Positions 1-51,737 of a stretch of DNA of 56,654 nt are shown here, one piece after another. The translations under genes were made by a program, and so were the position numbers. The notes beneath the pieces are model-generated. The model saw only the letters and a program-made list of their open reading frames with translations, searched no databases and was not told where the DNA came from. Position 1 is the stretch's first letter, and every line of letters begins with the position of its first letter. Source of the DNA: Prorocentrum cordatum (taxonomy: Eukaryota); the NCBI GenBank assembly GCA_963575745.1, contig CAUYUJ010000076.1, forward strand, positions 62,001 to 118,654. Direction: 5' to 3'.

Positions 1-1180
1 TGGGGGTCACTATCGTTTCGCCGACCCCTACAGTCGAAACGGTACCCAGCGATCCGACGCTCCAAAAAAAATTGGAGCGGGCGGTTCTTGGCCGTTTTCG
101 GCCTCTGGGGGCCCTCGCCGGGCCTCGGGAGCGTCAAAGAATTATTCAGGACGAAAAGCCAGCCTTGGGAAGATGTCCGGACCTCTGGGGCCTACGCATC
201 GAAAAATCGGAGCAGCCGGATGTCTGGGTTGTCAGGGTGGGCAATTTTCCCAAGGGTACCCTTGCATCCTTGCCTCCTCGGTCCATCTTTGACCACTTTC
301 GATGGCGCTTCAACACGGGCGTTCAAGGGACTTGCATGCTTATCGCGCATCCTTACTATAAGTATTGACTGCGTCCCTATCCCGTTCCCATCCAGACCTC
401 CACCATCTCATCCCCCCAGTTGCGGATATGCCCCTCGAAGCCCGAAGGAACGGACAACATCCCCATCCAGGGGGGTACATCGGCCAGTGGGGCCCAGGCC
501 GTGCCGTCAGGGGTAGGGGTCGGATAAGCGATGCTCAGGATGGGCGTGGGCCACATGGCCGACGTGGGCGTGACTGCCGCCGTCAGGAATCGAAGGGGAA
601 AAGTCTGAATAAGAACATGTCGCCGCGCCGTTTCTCCCGACGCGCGGCCTTGCGCCTCGGGGAACACCTCGGGCACCACAGACGCAGAGTCTGCCGCGGA
701 TTTGCCGCGGTGTCGGCTTCGTCTGCTTGGGCGCGCTCAGAACACATGGCGCAGCGACACATACTTACAGTCAAGACGCCGAGATAAGAAACCGCTTCAG
801 GTTCGGAAGGGGCCCGCTGTTCCCTGGGCCACTCCGTGGCTGTTCCTCCTGCCCTTTCCTCGTGCACCCAGGCCTTGGTGGTGCCCCACATGGGCCCCGC
901 TCCTTACCTAGCGTTCCTGATTGCAGCAGCTGGCTGTGCTCCTCTCGGAGGTGCCCGCAGATCTCCCCGCATCGGCGCGGGAGCCCCCCCCCTCGGCGCG
1001 TGGGCGGCGCCGGAGGCGCCGCCCGGGGGGGTCCAGCGCCGCTGCGAGGCGTGCGCGCGGACCTGCGAGGGCGTGTGGTTGTGCAGGCGCTGGTTCTCCC
1101 GAGGGCTATGATATCTATACGTGTATGTATATTCAATCAACCAATCAATCAATCAATCTATCTATCTATCTATCTATCTA

Positions 1181-3058: not shown

Positions 3059-3289
3059 TGCTTCGCATTGTAATGCTTGTCTTTTTCGCCCTTGCACTTT
3101 GTGCTCCTCGTCGTCTCCTAGCCAGCTGCCCTCGGCAAGTCCCGCCACCGTGCCAGCCCAGCACCGGAAGGCGACTGTTCGAGGAGCGCACAGGGAAGCG
3201 TCACGTGTGACACCTCGTTGGACGAGGCCTGGGAGAGCCTAAACATGTGACATGCTCTTCCACTTCGTGTCGGGTGTCTCCCATCGTGT

Positions 3290-3347
<58 letters not shown>

Positions 3348-3364
3348 AGCCGCCGTCGTCTCCT

Positions 3365-3965
3365 TGAGGCCTCTTGAGGGGGGCTCTTGGAGGTTTCTTG
3401 GGGGCGTCGTGGGGGCCTCTTGGTGCCTCTTGAGAGCTTTCGGGCCGTCTCAGGGCGCTCTTGGGCCGTCTTAGGGTGCTCTTGGGCAGTCTGGCGCCTT
3501 CGGGGTCCGTCTTGGGGGCCTCTTTTGGCTGTCTTCGGGACCTTTTGGGGCCCTTAGCGGTCGTCTTGGGGGTCTCTTCGGCCGTCCTGGGGTCTTCTTG
3601 GGCCGTCCTGGAGGCCTCTTGGGCCATCTTGAGGGCCTCTTGGGCCATCCTGAGGCCGTCTTGGGCCGTCTTGGGGCAATACGGTAGGCCTCTTGGGTTG
3701 TCTTTGGCTAATAGAAGCCCGAGACGGTGAGAAGGCACGAATCATGTAACCACATCAGGGACATCAGTGATTTTGGCCTCTTCGGGCCCTCCTGGGGTTC
3801 CTCTTGACGCCCTCTTGGGCCGTCTTGGGGGCCTCTTGGGATGTCTTGCTGTCATCTTCGGATGTCTTGGGGCCATCTTGGTCCGTCTTGCAGACACCTT
3901 GGGCTTCTGGGCGGCTGTCGGGCCATCCTGGCGACTGGGGTGGCTTTCCTCGGCCGTCTTGGGAG
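3365..3965. repeat. Degenerate ~11-bp tandem repeat element (GGCCGTCTTGG-like)
   Basis: Periodic (G/T)CTTGGG(G/C)C units; a reverse-complement copy lies at about 40050-40620. Confidence 0.8.
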
Positions 3966-4278
3966 CGTCGCAAGCTTTGGAGAGGCTGCGTGCTCACTCT
4001 CTGCTCGTCGTCCTCCTATTCCTTCTTGCTGTTTCGGCAGGACGGTGTCAGTTCCGAGGGCTCCGACAGACCTCACACCTAGGTAACAGTCGGGGCCCCT
4101 CCACTTGGCCCTCTGACGAGTGGGTCTCCAGAAGGTCGCAGTCAAGCAACAATCCGGCCGAAACGGCTTTGATCCTGGGCCTCATCGGGAGAGATCCGGC
4201 TTGATGGCCCTCCACTCGAGCTTGAGAGCCCCCAGTCGTTCTCGCGACGAATCTCCCAGGATCTGCCTCCCAACAAGT

Positions 4279-4299
4279 CGGTAGCCATTTTGGTTCAGG
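4279..4299 (+). other. Relict dinoflagellate spliced leader (DinoSL)
   Basis: CGGTAGCCATTTTGGTTCAGG vs DinoSL CCGTAGCCATTTTGGCTCAAG, 18/21 identical; about 150 nt upstream of the intronless HNH ORF. Confidence 0.75.
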
Positions 4300-4452
4300 G
4301 CCGCTTCGCTCAACCACGAGTGCTCCAGGGATTCTTTTCTCAAGCGATTTTGGGGTGGACCTTCCACGCTGGAGCTCACCACATGCCTCGATGAAGGGCG
4401 GCCGAGTCAGGGGCAGCGCTGGAGGCAGCATAGCAGTACACTGTTTACCGCC

Positions 4453-5616
4453 ATGTTGAAGAGTGCACACTGTGCACACATCATAGGCTGTCTTCGCATC
4501 TTTCAAGCATCACGGCTGCACTGCTCGCGCACAGTCGCGGATTATCCTACGCAGCGCGGTCTTTGTTCCGATGGGGTTCCTGCGGTGAGCTCTCGCGGTC
4601 GGATAAAGTCTAGATCTGGGAAGATATCGTATGGCTATATCGCAGCAGATGGATATTGTGTGACTGCGGTCGGGGGAAAGATGGCCCTGGTTCATCGCTT
4701 GGTGGCCCGTGCATTCCATGGCCCACCACCCACAATCCAACACTGCGATGTGCACCACATTGACGGCGTTCGCAGCAACAACGACTTGCAAAATTTGGAG
4801 TATGCGACCCGCAGCCAGAATATTTGGTTCTCCTGGCGGAACAACCCCAATCGGGGCAGTTCTGCAAGTGCTCTTTCAATGCCAGTTAGGGGTAGACCAC
4901 TTGGAGTTGAAATGTGGCGCCATTTCAAGTCCATGCGAGAAGCAGAGCGGATGACAGGAGCGCCCAACGTTGGACTTTGTTGCGCTGGGGCGTGCAGGCA
5001 ATCTGGAGGTTGGGAGTTCCAGCGCGTTGAGTCCACTGGTATCCACGCCCTACAGGGAGAGCAGTGGGCAGACGCGCTTCATCCAGACACTGGAGTTCTT
5101 CTGCTGGGTTGGGAGATCAGCTCATTCGGGCGAGTACGTTCATCGCGTGGCCACGTCTCTTGGGGCACTTTGTCTGCATCCGGTTACCGTTCCGTCGGGG
5201 TTTCAGTAGAGGGCCACACGAAACGATTGATGGTCCATCGAATTGTCGCGCGCTCGTTCCTGAAACCAGGGCCCCCCTTAGGCAACTGGGTAGTCAATCA
5301 TAAAGACGGTGACCCGAACAATAATCGTATGGATAATTTAGAGTATGCGACGCATTCCGAGAACTTACTCCATTCGTATATGACCAATCGGAGACGGCGG
5401 AGCAACCGCGATGCGCTTGCAAAGCCTATCTGGGGGCGACCGGTTGGAGGTGAATTTTGGCAGAGGTATTCTTCCGGAGTGGACGCTGCCAAGCTTTTGG
5501 GTCTCTCGCCAAGTGCAATTTCAAGTTGTTGTAGGGGCCAGTGCCTCCAAACAAAAGGATTCGAATTTAAGTTTGCAGCTCCAGCTATCCCTGATGTGCT
5601 CGAGGGCGAGGAGTAG
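4453..5616 (+). CDS. Intronless tandem HNH endonuclease, two NUMOD4-like/HNH/NUMOD1(IENR1)-like units
   Basis: Unit 1: VSSRGRIKS...VHRLVARAF...VHHIDGVRSNNDLQNLEYATRSQN...FKSMREAERMTG..CC. Unit 2: GEQW...ISSFGRVRS...VHRIVARSF...VNHKDGDPNNNRMDNLEYATHSENLLH...YSSGVDAAKLLGLSPSAISSCC. Ends GEE*, where TAG aligns with the Trp of GEQW. Confidence 0.9.
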   Translation: MLKSAHCAHIIGCLRIFQASRLHCSRTVADYPTQRGLCSDGVPAVSSRGRIKSRSGKISYGYIAADGYCVTAVGGKMALVHRLVARAFHGPPPTIQHCDVHHIDGVRSNNDLQNLEYATRSQNIWFSWRNNPNRGSSASALSMPVRGRPLGVEMWRHFKSMREAERMTGAPNVGLCCAGACRQSGGWEFQRVESTGIHALQGEQWADALHPDTGVLLLGWEISSFGRVRSSRGHVSWGTLSASGYRSVGVSVEGHTKRLMVHRIVARSFLKPGPPLGNWVVNHKDGDPNNNRMDNLEYATHSENLLHSYMTNRRRRSNRDALAKPIWGRPVGGEFWQRYSSGVDAAKLLGLSPSAISSCCRGQCLQTKGFEFKFAAPAIPDVLEGEE

Positions 5617-5732
5617 AGAGTCCTACCATCGGCGTGCTAGCCAAGACACCATCGGGGCTTTAGTGTGTGACGAACAAAAGGCTGCCTCCCCACAAGCGAG
5701 GGGTGGCGGAGGAGCGCCGCGCCCCCGCGCAG

Positions 5733-19990
<14,258 letters not shown>

Positions 19991-49600: not shown

Positions 49601-51737
49601 TCGTTGGGGAGGGGCTCGGTGTTCCTTGACTGTTTCACAGCCTGCCTCAGGTTTTTCCTCAGGTTTTCGATCTGGAATCGAAGCTTAACTTATGGAAAAT
49701 AGGGGCCTCGTTCCTTATTTAGGGTTCCTTAGGTCAACGCCCCGACTGTATAACCCCCACAACAGTTAGTCCCAGCAGCCTCCAGTGCAGCCCCGAAAGG
49801 TTTCCAGGACCCCCACCTCGTCCTCCCTCTCGTCCTCCGTACTGTCCACCCTTTTGTCTTTCCGCGCCGTTCTTCACGCTGTCTTTCTTCTAGTCGTCCC
49901 CCGCGTCGGCCTCGTCAACTCCCGCATTGGCCCCACTTGTCCTCGTCGTCGCCCCCCTCCGTCCTCTCTTCTCTCGTTCCTGGCCTATAGGTCCATCGTG
50001 CCATCCGCCCGAGCCTGCCAGATCGAGACCGAGCACGCCCAGCGCGACGCCGTCGTCGAGCAAGCTCTCCCCCCTCCTCATCCAGGCTGTCCTCCACGGG
50101 AGGAGGAGGAGGCGGAGGAAGAGGAGGAGGGGGAGGAGGCGGAGGAAAGGGAGGAGGAGGAGGAGGAGAGGAGGAGGAGGAGGAGGAGGAGGAGGAGGAG
50201 AGAAGGAGGAGGGAGGAGGAGGAGGGGAGGAGGAGGAGGAGGAAAGGAGGGGAAAGAGGAGGAGGGGGGAGGGAGGGGGGGGGAGGGGAGGAGGGGGGGA
50301 GGAGGGAGGAGAGGAGGAGGGAGGAGGGAGGAGGAGGAGGAGGAGGAGGAGTCTTCACGCCGTCGCCCTCCTGCCCCTCGTCGCTCTGGTCGTCCTCCGG
50401 GCTCTCGTGCTTGCCCTCCTCGTGCCTCTTCCTCTCCTCGCCCTTTGTGCACGTTATTCCTGCTCGCCGTCCTCCTTCTCCTCCGCCCGTTACCCTCGTC
50501 CTCGACGCTGCCCTCGTCGTCCGCCTCCTCGTCGCCCTCCTCGCCCATCTTTTTGCTTCTCCGTTGCACGCGCCCAGTGGGCAGAAGCGGTGCTGTGTCC
50601 GTTCTCGTCCGGTCAGGGTTTGGGGCTGTCTTGGGCATTGGGGGCTCTCGGGCGCGTCTTTGGGTCCTGCGCGCCCCATGGATGGTGCTTGAGGCTGTCT
50701 GGACCGCGCGGGGACCGTCAGGATACCGCGCGGAGCACGTGGGAGCGTACTATAGCGGCTGGGAGCTGCTGGGGGGAGTCAGGGCATGTCGGATTGGTTT
50801 TCAGAGGCTCTCGAATCATCCCCAGAGGAGGCCTCCCCAGGAAAGAAGGTCGTATACGCCGCTTGGCTTATGGAGCCTGCGGGTCAAGGACATGATCGAG
50901 AAGCTAGAGGCCGAGGCTGACGCCGCCGCGACCGAGAAGGCCTACTGCGACGAGCAAATTGCCAAGACCGAAGCGAAGAAGTCGGAGCTCGAGGATGACA
51001 TCGCCAGGCTGACTTCCAAGATCGACACCAAGAGCGCGAACTCGGCCAAGCTCAAGGAGGAGGTGAAGACGCTGCAGACGGAGCTGGCCTCGCTTGCAAA
51101 GGAGCAGGCAGAGATGGATCAGATCCGCTCTGACCAGCACGCAGGCTACCTCCAGGCCAAATCCGACCTCGAGCTTGGCCTCGAGGGCGTGGGTAAGGCG
51201 CTCTCGATCCTCCGCAAGTACTACCAGGGCGATGGTGCCGCCATGCTCCAGAGCCAGCAGCCAGCGAAGCCGGTGTTCCACAGCAAGGCCGCAGGCGCAG
51301 GCGGCAGTATAATCGACATCCTGGAGGTCGTGGAGTCAGACTTCGCGAAGAACCTTGCCGACGAGGAGGCCACGGAGGCGGACGCGCTGTCGTCGTACGA
51401 CGCCAGGACGCAGGAGATCAAGGTGTCCGCGGCCACGAAGAGCCAGGACGTGACATACAAGGTGCAAGAGTTCAAGGGCTTGGACAAGGACGTCGACGAG
51501 CTATCCGCCGACCGCGCGTCCACCAACGCGGAGCTGTCGTCGGTGCTGGAGTATTTCTCCAAGGTGAACGAGCGCTGCATTGCCAAGCCAGAGACGTACG
51601 AGGAGCGCAAGGCCCGTCGCGAGTCCGAGATAAAGGGCCTGAAGGAAGCCCTGGCGATCCTGAGCGACGAGACGGCCGCGTCGCTCCTGCAGGCGCGCAA
51701 GCGCCGCGCCCTGCGCCAGGGGGCCCTGGCCGCGTGA
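46636..51737 (+). CDS. Secreted coiled-coil protein of an abundant dinoflagellate family (about 698 aa, 3 exons)
   Basis: Exons 46636-46782, 48065-49165, 50889-51737. Signal peptide MKGLVVLSILALAGVRG. Internally duplicated halves NPLGKVVELM..WCDE and DPFVKVKGLI..KAYCDE; C-terminus CIAKPETYEERKARRESEIKGLKEALAIL. Confidence 0.88.
46967..47650 (-). mobile_element. Third copy of the (GGA)n-anchored 83-bp-unit element, inside an intron
   Basis: Homologous to 11511-12110; flanked by (GGA)n on both sides. Confidence 0.8.

What the first reader, a model, noticed from the sequence alone, without database searches (positions are those of the whole stretch)
4279..5640. Phage/giant-virus-type tandem HNH endonuclease behind an SL relic
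Seen: an intronless 387-aa ORF with two NUMOD4-HNH-NUMOD1-like units, visibly lower GC3 than crtI, 150 nt after an 18/21 DinoSL match, in an otherwise intron-rich locus. The stop falls where a third unit's Trp would be (GEE* vs GEQW). Unit 1 lacks the last His (SQNIWF vs SENLLH). Known: this domain set typifies homing endonucleases of phages and large DNA viruses. Inference: a virus-derived nuclease family that is trans-spliced by the host and spreads as retrocopies. The Arg-containing, acid-free N-terminus might be an organelle-targeting signal (speculative).
Basis: partly seen in the sequence, partly recalled or inferred. Interest (0 to 1): 0.72.

Follow-up and report, generated by a model that had tools for sequence, protein, structure and literature searches.

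The report
Expressed retrocopied tandem HNH nuclease gene
A transcribed, intron-lodged retrocopy in a dinoflagellate genome encodes a double HNH DNA-cutting enzyme of a virus-like type, and its flanks show step by step how such genes multiply through spliced-leader mRNAs.

Summary
Window 4453..5616 (+) is an intact 387-aa ORF with two I-HmuI-like HNH units (39% identical, E 1e-36). GC3 is 0.54, against 0.84 for the crtI-like exon. A DinoSL match lies 153 nt upstream of the ATG.

The locus is a processed retrogene spanning 4278..5681. It starts with a full 22-nt DinoSL relic (19/22), followed by about five decayed 15-nt relics in tandem. It ends in an A-rich stretch and is flanked by a 15-nt target-site duplication (14/15). 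It lies inside an intron of a + strand multi-exon host gene.

RNA contigs from 4 of 4 runs are collinear with the genome. They start at the AG inside the relic (4283-4286 in 3 of 4 runs; 4346 in the fourth) and end at 5669-5676.

The closest named relatives are Prorocentrum cordatum paralogues, and one of these starts with translated SL relics. The two-unit family occurs in several dinoflagellate genera. It shares an unusual boundary shift (a C-terminal GEEW strand) with genes on two giant-virus-like contigs, which lack the leader.

The dinoflagellate leaders look like mitochondrial presequences. In this copy a stop codon replaces the nearly invariant tail Trp.

This is a new variant of known kinds, of moderate interest.

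The parts
4263..4277 (.). Left copy of the target-site duplication (CTGCCTCCCAACAAG)
   Evidence: It is 14/15 identical to 5682-5696. Random placements of the same geometry reach >=14/15 in 8 of 2985 trials. It ends 1 nt before the 22-nt SL relic.
4278..4299 (+). Full-length DinoSL relic (19/22). It contains the internal AG (4283-4284) that can serve again as a trans-splice acceptor.
   Evidence: 18/21 match, 0 matches in 100 shuffles. Sequence read. RNA contigs start at 4283, 4284 and 4286 in three of four runs.
4300..4374 (+). Array of five older, decayed 15-nt SL relics in phase with the first one
   Evidence: The blocks match the 15-nt relic core at 9, 6, 9, 8 and 8 of 15 positions, then fall to 2 and 4. 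Blocks 2-5 sum to 32 of 60. Of 112,870 positions scanned on both strands, only frames overlapping this array score 32 or more. P0002 shows PFWLK-PSWLK at the same place.
4375..4452 (+). Rest of the 5' UTR, with two upstream ATGs (4383 and 4391) that open short uORFs
   Evidence: Read. Covered by RNA contigs.
4453..4581 (+). N-terminal leader (aa 1-43). It is basic, acid-poor and predicted disordered, and is a candidate mitochondrial presequence.
   Evidence: pLDDT is below 50 for residues 1-36. Family leaders have a median length of 41 aa and 3.9% acidic residues against 8.2% in the rest of the protein. R.[FYL][SA] occurs in 44 of 90 leaders against 13.5 in shuffles. The leader is absent from the virus-like homologues L001 and L002.
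4585..5052 (+). HNH unit 1 (aa 45-200): an I-HmuI-like module that lacks the first beta-strand. Catalytic His102.
5059..5586 (+). HNH unit 2 (aa 203-378): a complete I-HmuI-like module with a NUMOD-like HTH. Catalytic His283.
   Evidence: phmmer to 1u3e gives E 4e-9. VIA-align gives Z 13.3, with 162 of 174 residues aligned, model 203..378 to chain 1..174. Pfam.
5614..5616 (+). TAG stop in place of the family's conserved tail Trp (GEE* against GEEWR)
   Evidence: The RNA contigs show no other letter here.
5617..5681 (+). 3' UTR and A-rich end (ACGAACAAAA, 5670-5679) of the retrocopy
   Evidence: RNA contigs end at 5669 in two runs and at 5676, followed by adapter, in one run. Sequence read.
5682..5696 (.). 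Right copy of the target-site duplication (CTGCCTCCCCACAAG)
5730..5781 (+). Context: an exon of the host gene whose intron holds the retrogene
   Evidence: It lies inside 8-11 kb RNA contigs with non-matching sequence on both sides. The downstream continuation maps exactly to 11210-11239. The upstream continuation is not in the window.

Best explanation
Window 4278..5681 is a processed retrogene. An SL-capped, polyadenylated mRNA of a dinoflagellate nuclear gene was reverse-transcribed and inserted into an intron of a + strand host gene, duplicating 15 nt of the target.

The mRNA lineage had been through this cycle several times, and each round left one more 15-nt SL relic in the 5' UTR.

The copy is transcribed, most likely as part of the host pre-mRNA or from an upstream start. 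It is probably cut out by SL trans-splicing at the AG inside the youngest relic (4283-4284) and polyadenylated near 5669-5679. These steps are inferred.

It encodes a 387-aa protein with three parts:
- a leader of about 43 aa that resembles a mitochondrial presequence;
- two complete I-HmuI-type HNH (beta-beta-alpha-metal) nuclease modules;
- a helix-turn-helix DNA-binding module for each nuclease module.

By analogy with the monomeric nickase I-HmuI, the single chain would bind an extended, asymmetric DNA site. Having two active centres, it could nick both strands (inferred).

The family is present in several dinoflagellate genera. It shares a specific boundary shift with genes on giant-virus-like contigs: there is no N-terminal GEEW strand, and a C-terminal GEEWR strand appears instead. 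The family therefore most likely came from, or was exchanged with, large DNA viruses, and it gained the leader in the host.

This particular copy lost the C-terminal strand to a TGG-to-TAG change. Otherwise it keeps the family's conserved positions.
For: Retrogene anatomy:
- SL relic, 18/21 in the tool scan and 19/22 with T4278.
- Relic array.
- Target-site duplication, 14/15, placed exactly at both ends.
- A-rich end.

Expression and boundaries:
- 20 runs of 9 studies hold the stretch.
- In 4 of 4 runs laid, the contigs are collinear, with 0 other letters, 0 gaps and 0 joints.
- They start at 4283, 4284, 4286 and 4346, and three of the runs reach the 3' end, at 5669, 5669 and 5676.
- There is no cover on 3900-4282 or 5677-5729.
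- One run is poly(A) RNA-Seq on record. All four also carry the spliced 52-nt host exon, which shows they are RNA.

Intron nesting.

Paralogue with translated relics: P0002, 1 of 120 listed proteins.

Protein:
- Pfam HNH_3 x2 and PF22083.
- PHROG 59, E 9e-62.
- I-HmuI by sequence and by fold (Z 13.3, Foldseek E 8e-11 on paralogue P0003).
- AF2 pLDDT 86.5 and 86.9.
- The core residues are invariant or at least 90% conserved in 84 aligned members.
- The window protein has the consensus residue at 79 of 84 conserved columns, rank 41 of 84.

Family spread: P. cordatum 11 rows, Symbiodinium natans 2, Durusdinium trenchii 3, Effrenium voratum 2, and a Pyrodinium transcript.

Virus link:
- L001 carries patatin, PCNA and the tandem HNH gene.
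- L002 carries a 989-aa TopoII ORF, with the HNH ORF 4 nt later.
- Both have the C-terminal GE.W tail and no leader.
- The L001 PCNA and the L002 TopoII have mainly unnamed environmental relatives. Cellular TopoII is only 28-33% identical.

Leader.
Against: - No contig shows SL letters joined to 4285, so trans-splicing of this copy is inferred. Contigs cannot show true 5' ends.
- The A-rich end is only 7 A in 10 nt.
- A >=14/15 repeat arises in 8 of 2985 random placements in this repeat-rich window.
- No SL relic was found in any of the 80 metagenome loci. None was found within 800 nt upstream of the 9 dinoflagellate-type ones, even at <=4 mismatches of the 15-mer. Relic association is therefore not shown to be general.
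- The best 80 IMG/VR loci hold no dinoflagellate-type protein.
- The branch that separates the dinoflagellate-type units has SH-aLRT 90-92, not >=95, from a quick LG+G4 search. L001 and L002 sit in a basal polytomy, so neither the donor nor the direction is resolved.
- A stop replaces a Trp that 115 of 120 relatives keep, GC3 is low and two uORFs precede the ATG. The copy could therefore be on its way to decay.
- Nuclease activity, strand specificity and localisation are untested.
Confidence: 0.8

Rival explanations
1. It is a decaying retro-pseudogene. The copy is transcribed only because it sits in a host intron, and its protein is not used.
For: A TAG replaces the tail Trp kept by 115 of 120 relatives. 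GC3 is 0.54 against 0.77-0.84 for neighbouring coding sequence. Two uORFs are read. The copy is nested in an intron.
Against: The consensus residue is kept at 79 of 84 conserved columns; three of the misses are conservative, and the copy is of median rank in the family. The 1161-nt frame is open, while the neutral markers beside it differ at 4 of 37 positions (relic 3/22, duplication 1/15). The RNA contigs have discrete ends at the relic AG and at 5669-5676, they are not joined to host exons, and one run is a poly(A) library. P0018 also ends at GEE, so the short form may be tolerated.
Confidence: 0.2
2. The family is native to dinoflagellates or other algae, and giant viruses captured it from a host. 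It is not virus-derived.
For: All dinoflagellate units form one group, with L001 and L002 in a basal polytomy rather than around it. No dinoflagellate-type protein is among the best 80 IMG/VR loci. A Phaeocystis entry, P0046, also carries it.
Against: The domain set (HNH_3 with the I-HmuI NUMOD-like module) matches 22 PHROG phage families. Its relatives in the tree are on viral or compact environmental contigs. The virus-like versions lack the host-type leader. A paper passage cites HNH endonuclease among virus-to-Symbiodiniaceae transfers (PMC9651163, passages).
Confidence: 0.25
3. The copy spread at the DNA level, by homing or by segmental duplication, and the SL-like sequence is incidental.
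For: HNH enzymes of this type are homing endonucleases in phages (PDB title 1u3e). 0 of 9 dinoflagellate-type environmental loci show a relic.
Against: The SL match does not arise in shuffles. It abuts the duplication, it is followed by a phased relic array, and the RNA boundaries coincide with the insert. P0002 translates relics at the same place.
Confidence: 0.04

Closest known systems
I-HmuI (PDB 1U3E), the HNH homing endonuclease of a Bacillus phage
   Same: Each unit has the same module order: beta-sheet, HNH beta-beta-alpha-metal core, two helices, C-terminal HTH. Unit 2 covers the whole chain (Z 13.3, 162 of 174 residues, 28% identity; E 4e-9). The His and Asn core positions align.
   Different: Here there are two units in one chain, with a host-type N-terminal leader. 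The first strand of unit 1 is missing, and an equivalent strand is appended at the C-terminus in the family. The gene is nuclear, lies in a spliceosomal intron and has spread by retroposition; it is not in a group I intron. That I-HmuI is a monomeric nickase is recalled, not taken from a call.
Two-unit HNH proteins of giant-virus MAG contigs (L103, L108, L008, L027, L076)
   Same: They are tandem I-HmuI-like units of similar length.
   Different: They start with the EEW strand and have no C-terminal GEEW tail. Their two units are sisters of each other in the tree, so they were duplicated independently. Identity to the query is 27-29%.
Tandem HNH genes on the compact contigs L001 and L002 (giant-virus-like)
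   Same: They have the same permuted boundaries and the same C-terminal GE.W strand, at 37-38% identity over residues 37/45-387. They group with the dinoflagellate units.
   Different: They have no leader. Their neighbours are intronless and tightly spaced: patatin and PCNA on L001, TopoII on L002. Their viral nature is inferred from context and from relatives that are mainly unnamed environmental proteins.
DinoSL-tagged retrogenes ('mRNA recycling')
   Same: A DNA-encoded SL relic at the 5' end, relics in tandem, and expression. Retrogenes of this kind are described in PMC12014239 (abstract and passages) and in PMC6050394 and PMC5585692 (abstracts in the listing).
   Different: Here the target-site duplication, the A-rich end and the position inside a host intron are all visible at one locus. 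The cargo is a virus-type nuclease. 'Endonuclease' and 'HNH' occur 0 times in the main text of PMC12014239.
Virus-derived genes of dinoflagellates (for example DVNP; HNH endonuclease listed among Symbiodiniaceae viral transfers)
   Same: A gene type typical of large DNA viruses that is fixed and multiplied in dinoflagellate nuclei (PMC9651163, passages; Durusdinium annotation 'HNH endonuclease L247').
   Different: No paper found in the searches describes the tandem architecture, the tail strand, the leader or SL-relic copies of this family. The Irwin et al. paper itself was not read; it is known here only through the passage that cites it.

Membership tests
HNH_3 / I-HmuI-type HNH endonuclease | Profile match above the curated threshold | tested here: met
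   PF13392 scores 88.3 bits against 24.8, in two stretches. PHROG 59 gives E 9e-62.
HNH_3 / I-HmuI-type HNH endonuclease | Catalytic His and metal-binding Asn of the beta-beta-alpha-metal core are present | tested here: met
   H102, N110, N114 and N123, and H283, D285, N291, N295 and N304, are invariant or at least 90% conserved in 84 members. Unit 2 aligns DH..N of I-HmuI to NH..N. The roles of the I-HmuI residues are recalled, not taken from a call.
HNH_3 / I-HmuI-type HNH endonuclease | Fold of the whole I-HmuI chain, including the C-terminal HTH | tested here: met
   Z 13.3, rmsd 8.8, 162 of 174 residues aligned. PF22083 scores 33.9 bits against 27 for unit 2. Unit 1 is inferred from the internal repeat and the model.
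HNH_3 / I-HmuI-type HNH endonuclease | Site-specific DNA nicking or cleavage | not testable with these tools
   This needs an enzyme assay.
Homing endonuclease (mobile by cleavage and repair) | The gene sits in a self-splicing intron or intein, or beside its target, and spreads by DNA repair | tested here: inconclusive
   This copy shows marks of retroposition and lies in a spliceosomal intron. Homing of other members was not examined.
DinoSL retrogene | A DNA-encoded spliced-leader relic at the 5' end of the transcribed unit | tested here: met
DinoSL retrogene | Tandem relics from repeated rounds of retroposition | tested here: met
   for the window; for P0002.
DinoSL retrogene | Target-site duplication and poly(A) remnant | tested here: met
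   The duplication is 14/15, against 8 of 2985 random placements. The A remnant is weak, 7 A in 10 nt.
DinoSL retrogene | An intron-containing parent gene | not testable with these tools
   No genome is held. The copy itself is intronless.
Gene of giant-virus origin | Nested among viral homologues in a supported tree | tested here: inconclusive
   The virus-like L001 and L002 group with the dinoflagellate units, but in a polytomy with SH-aLRT 90-92.
Mitochondrial presequence | An N-terminal extension that is basic, acid-poor and not hydrophobic, with an Arg -3 type motif | tested here: met
   absent in L001 and L002. The motif definition is recalled.
Mitochondrial presequence | Import into mitochondria | not testable with these tools
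   No predictor or experiment was available.

The most novel reading that the evidence does not exclude
The whole dinoflagellate family consists of mitochondrion-imported tandem HNH nucleases. They were taken from giant viruses already in the permuted two-unit form. Their two active centres let one chain break both DNA strands at asymmetric sites. Dozens of diverged paralogues would then cut the mitochondrial DNA at many places, which would help explain the fragmented, recombining mitochondrial genomes of dinoflagellates. SL-mediated retroposition is how the nuclease repertoire keeps expanding.
Probability: 0.12. Interest if true: 0.85.

Novelty: new variant of a known kind. Interest (0 to 1): 0.5.

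Why it matters
The locus is an unusually complete record of dinoflagellate retroposition. The target-site duplication, the full spliced leader, a ladder of older relics, the A-rich end and the present-day RNA boundaries are all readable in 1.4 kb.

The cargo is a virus-type DNA nuclease family that has multiplied in several dinoflagellate genera and carries a host-added leader. This gives a testable link between viral gene capture, retrogene amplification and possibly organelle genome maintenance.

The permuted tandem architecture, with a C-terminal strand that probably completes the first unit, is a small structural novelty for HNH homing-type enzymes.

Tried and rejected
- Own genome: none is held, so paralogue counts, intron content and an empty target site could not be examined.
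- Earlier notes of this scan: three look-ups returned nothing.
- Other copies in the window: tblastn found none besides the ORF; the next hit had E 0.097.
- Upstream host exon: the 30-nt loose end before 5730 is not in the window at <=3 mismatches. Its 11-14-mers gave only scattered 11-mer hits, none from its 3' end.
- SL on family members elsewhere: no DinoSL in any of the 80 metagenome loci or upstream of the 9 dinoflagellate-type ones. It is not established that these loci are dinoflagellate nuclear DNA.
- SL letters on the RNA contigs: none were listed as loose ends at 4283-4286. Contigs cannot show true 5' ends.
- No RNA cover was seen on 3900-4282 or 5677-5729 in the four runs. This was used only together with the contig ends.
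- A chance SL match was rejected.
- An exon of the host gene was rejected: there is no joint to 5730.
- A plastid-type signal peptide was rejected: a hydrophobic stretch occurs in 2 of 90 leaders.
- The idea that unit 1 is inactive because of the missing 'last His' was rejected.
- Pfam scan of 109 other long ORFs of the window: the only family hits were a crtI-like oxidoreductase exon, coiled-coil, mucin-like low complexity and one weak membrane-protease hit.
Full report
THE SEQUENCE

The ORF at 4453..5616 (+) encodes 387 aa. Its two halves are homologous: residues 45-204 against 221-387 give 39% identity over 166 aa, E 1e-36.

Pfam finds HNH_3 twice (88.3 bits) and the I-HmuI NUMOD-like module at residues 336-373. 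NUMOD4 is below threshold and NUMOD1 is not listed. Twenty-two PHROG families match, the best being phrog_59 at E 9e-62.

The only solved relative by sequence is I-HmuI (1u3e, E 4e-9), aligned to unit 2.

An AlphaFold model of the window protein was built with 84 family sequences. It has pLDDT 86.5 and pTM 0.72, and residues 1-36 are disordered. VIA-align places the whole I-HmuI chain (residues 1..174) on model residues 203..378, with Z 13.3. One unit therefore equals one complete I-HmuI.

GC3 of the ORF is 0.537. The crtI-like exon has 0.840 and the ORF 49770-51734 has 0.774.

THE RETROCOPY

The 21-nt DinoSL matches 4279-4299 with three mismatches. No match arises in 100 shuffles. Including T4278, the full 22-mer is present at 19/22.

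Immediately 5' of it lies CTGCCTCCCAACAAG (4263-4277). The same 15-mer, with one change, lies at 5682-5696, two bases after an A-rich run (ACGAACAAAA, 5670-5679). In 2985 random placements of the same geometry, 8 reached 14/15.

Behind the first relic, the next five 15-nt blocks still match the relic core at 9, 6, 9, 8 and 8 of 15 positions; the following blocks fall to 2 and 4. Among 112,870 positions on both strands, only frames overlapping this array score 32 or more of 60.

The frame through the array is open. The closest paralogue, P0002 (72% identical, Prorocentrum cordatum, a partial model), starts with PFWLKPSWLK, which is the translation of two tandem relics. It is the only one of the 120 listed proteins that does so.

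The lineage has therefore been retroposed several times. This copy still shows the insertion scars.

EXPRESSION AND SETTING

Twenty runs from nine studies hold the stretch. I laid four of them, each from a different study.
- The contigs are identical to the genome, without gaps or joints.
- They start at 4283, 4284, 4286 and 4346, and three of the runs reach the 3' end, at 5669, 5669 and 5676 (the last followed by adapter).
- Three of four starts fall on or next to the AG of the relic's GTAG|CC, the site at which a relic is expected to be re-used as trans-splice acceptor.
- No SL letters were seen joined to 4285, and contigs cannot show true ends. Trans-splicing of this copy is therefore inferred.
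- One run is poly(A) RNA-Seq on record.

All four runs also carry the 52-nt stretch 5730-5781 inside contigs of 0.3 to 11.4 kb (8-11 kb in three of them), with foreign sequence on both sides. The downstream continuation maps exactly to 11210. That gives a GA...AG|G intron on the + strand, read. The upstream continuation is not in the window.

The retrogene therefore lies in the same orientation inside a host intron of at least 5.7 kb.

THE FAMILY

The search gave 1109 proteins with E<=0.001, of which 120 were listed. Named rows come from P. cordatum (11), Durusdinium trenchii (3), Symbiodinium natans (2), Effrenium voratum (2), Pyrodinium bahamense (1) and Phaeocystis antarctica (1). Nearly all cover about 89% of the query at about 400 aa, so the two-unit form is the family norm. 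One member, P0007, has three units.

I aligned 84 of the 120, chosen for having both units and a usual length. Both HNH cores are invariant or at least 90% conserved in that alignment. The window protein keeps the consensus at 79 of 84 conserved columns and ranks 41st of 84.

Unit 1 begins at the VSSxGR strand without the preceding GExW strand. An extra GEEWR strand follows unit 2 in 115 of 120 proteins. In the model of paralogue P0003 this tail is a confident strand, E389-391, with pLDDT 93 and 80. I infer that it completes the sheet of unit 1, but I could not see coordinates.

In the window copy a TAG stands at the Trp. The RNA contigs show the same letters. P0018 ends at the same place.

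ORIGIN

A unit HMM found 24 two-unit ORFs among the 160 fetched loci. I built a tree of 116 units: 35 units from 18 database proteins, 42 units from 21 of the 24 two-unit ORFs, and the 40 best-scoring of 108 single-unit ORFs, which count as 39 rows in the tree. It was a quick IQ-TREE search with LG+G4.

The tree puts all dinoflagellate units with L001-L006, L010, L014 and L016 on one side (SH-aLRT 90-92). All other viral and environmental units fall on the other side. The giant-virus-MAG two-unit proteins duplicated independently. They also have the ordinary boundaries.

L001 (GC 0.41) carries patatin, PCNA and the tandem HNH gene on one strand. L002 (GC 0.63) carries a 989-aa type II topoisomerase ORF, with the HNH ORF 4 nt after it. 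The PCNA has 38 relatives, all environmental apart from a partial Pleurochrysis entry. The topoisomerase's nearest relatives are environmental proteins of about 1100 aa at 42-48% identity; cellular enzymes are at 28-33%.

Both HNH proteins have the C-terminal GE.W tail and no leader. I read these contigs as giant-virus-like. The direction of transfer is not resolved.

A passage of PMC9651163 cites HNH endonuclease among virus-to-Symbiodiniaceae transfers.

THE LEADER

Ninety of the 120 proteins start with M and have a 15-130-aa leader; the remaining 30 were dropped as partial or lacking the motif. Among these 90:
- Median leader length is 41 aa.
- Acidic residues make up 3.9% of the leader against 8.2% of the rest of the protein.
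- Arg makes up 10%.
- A signal-like hydrophobic stretch occurs in 2 of 90.
- R.[FYL][SA] occurs in 44 of 90 leaders, against 13.5 +/- 3.3 (maximum 24) in 500 shuffles. It lies mostly 15-18 residues before the domain.

Related sequences are not independent, so this is a lead. It does fit a mitochondrial presequence with an Arg -3 site (motif recalled from memory).

LITERATURE

Searches found DinoSL retrogene surveys and viral-transfer surveys. None described this tandem family, its tail, its leader or its relic-tagged copies. 'HNH' and 'endonuclease' are absent from the main text of the retrogene survey PMC12014239 and from the P. cordatum genome paper PMC10666404. Supplements were not read.

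VERDICT

The locus is an expressed DinoSL retrogene of a virus-related tandem HNH nuclease family. It is a new variant of known kinds, of moderate interest.

Noticed in passing
window 6372-6393 (+): A second DinoSL relic (TCCGTATCCATTTTAGCTCAAG, 2 mismatches in the 21-mer). It lies directly after a long CT-rich low-complexity tract, 60 nt before an ORF at 6454-6795, and inside the same host intron (5782-11209). It may be another retrocopy.
   Followed up: no
window 5730-5781 and 11210 onward (+): The host gene has an RNA contig of 8-11 kb. The intron between these two exons reads GA...AG followed by G, a non-canonical donor. The upstream exon lies beyond the start of the window. The identity of the gene was not determined; there is a weak PFF1_TM hit at 12232-12609.
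   Followed up: partly
window 4383-4394 and 4391-4459 (+): Two upstream ATGs open short uORFs in the 5' UTR. The second overlaps the main ATG (read).
   Followed up: no
protein P0018: A second family member (44% identical, from a 1262-nt contig) also ends at ...GEE, exactly before the conserved Trp. This is either a recurrent TGG-to-stop change or a tolerated short form.
   Followed up: no
L005:812-2200 and L002:2971-4047: In these two proteins unit 1 and unit 2 are each other's closest relatives (branches 0.13-0.18 in L005). This suggests repeated duplication or gene conversion between units. L005 resembles the Phaeocystis entry P0046.
   Followed up: no
model residues 321-376 of the window protein: The C-terminal HTH module matches a short chromatophore-targeted DNA-binding protein of Paulinella (8b6e_A, Z 7.1, 51 of 52 residues) and the I-TevI DNA-binding domain (Z 5.3).
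   Followed up: no
GC3 is 0.80-0.84.
   Followed up: partly
window 5800-6370 and 3100-4000: Long low-complexity tracts (CT-rich, and Glu/Arg/Leu-coding in several frames) flank the retrogene. A 100-N gap lies at 17233-17332.
   Followed up: no
proteins P0007, P0087, P0106: Longer family members. P0007 has three units. P0087 and P0106 carry extra N-terminal HTH-type Pfam domains.
   Followed up: no
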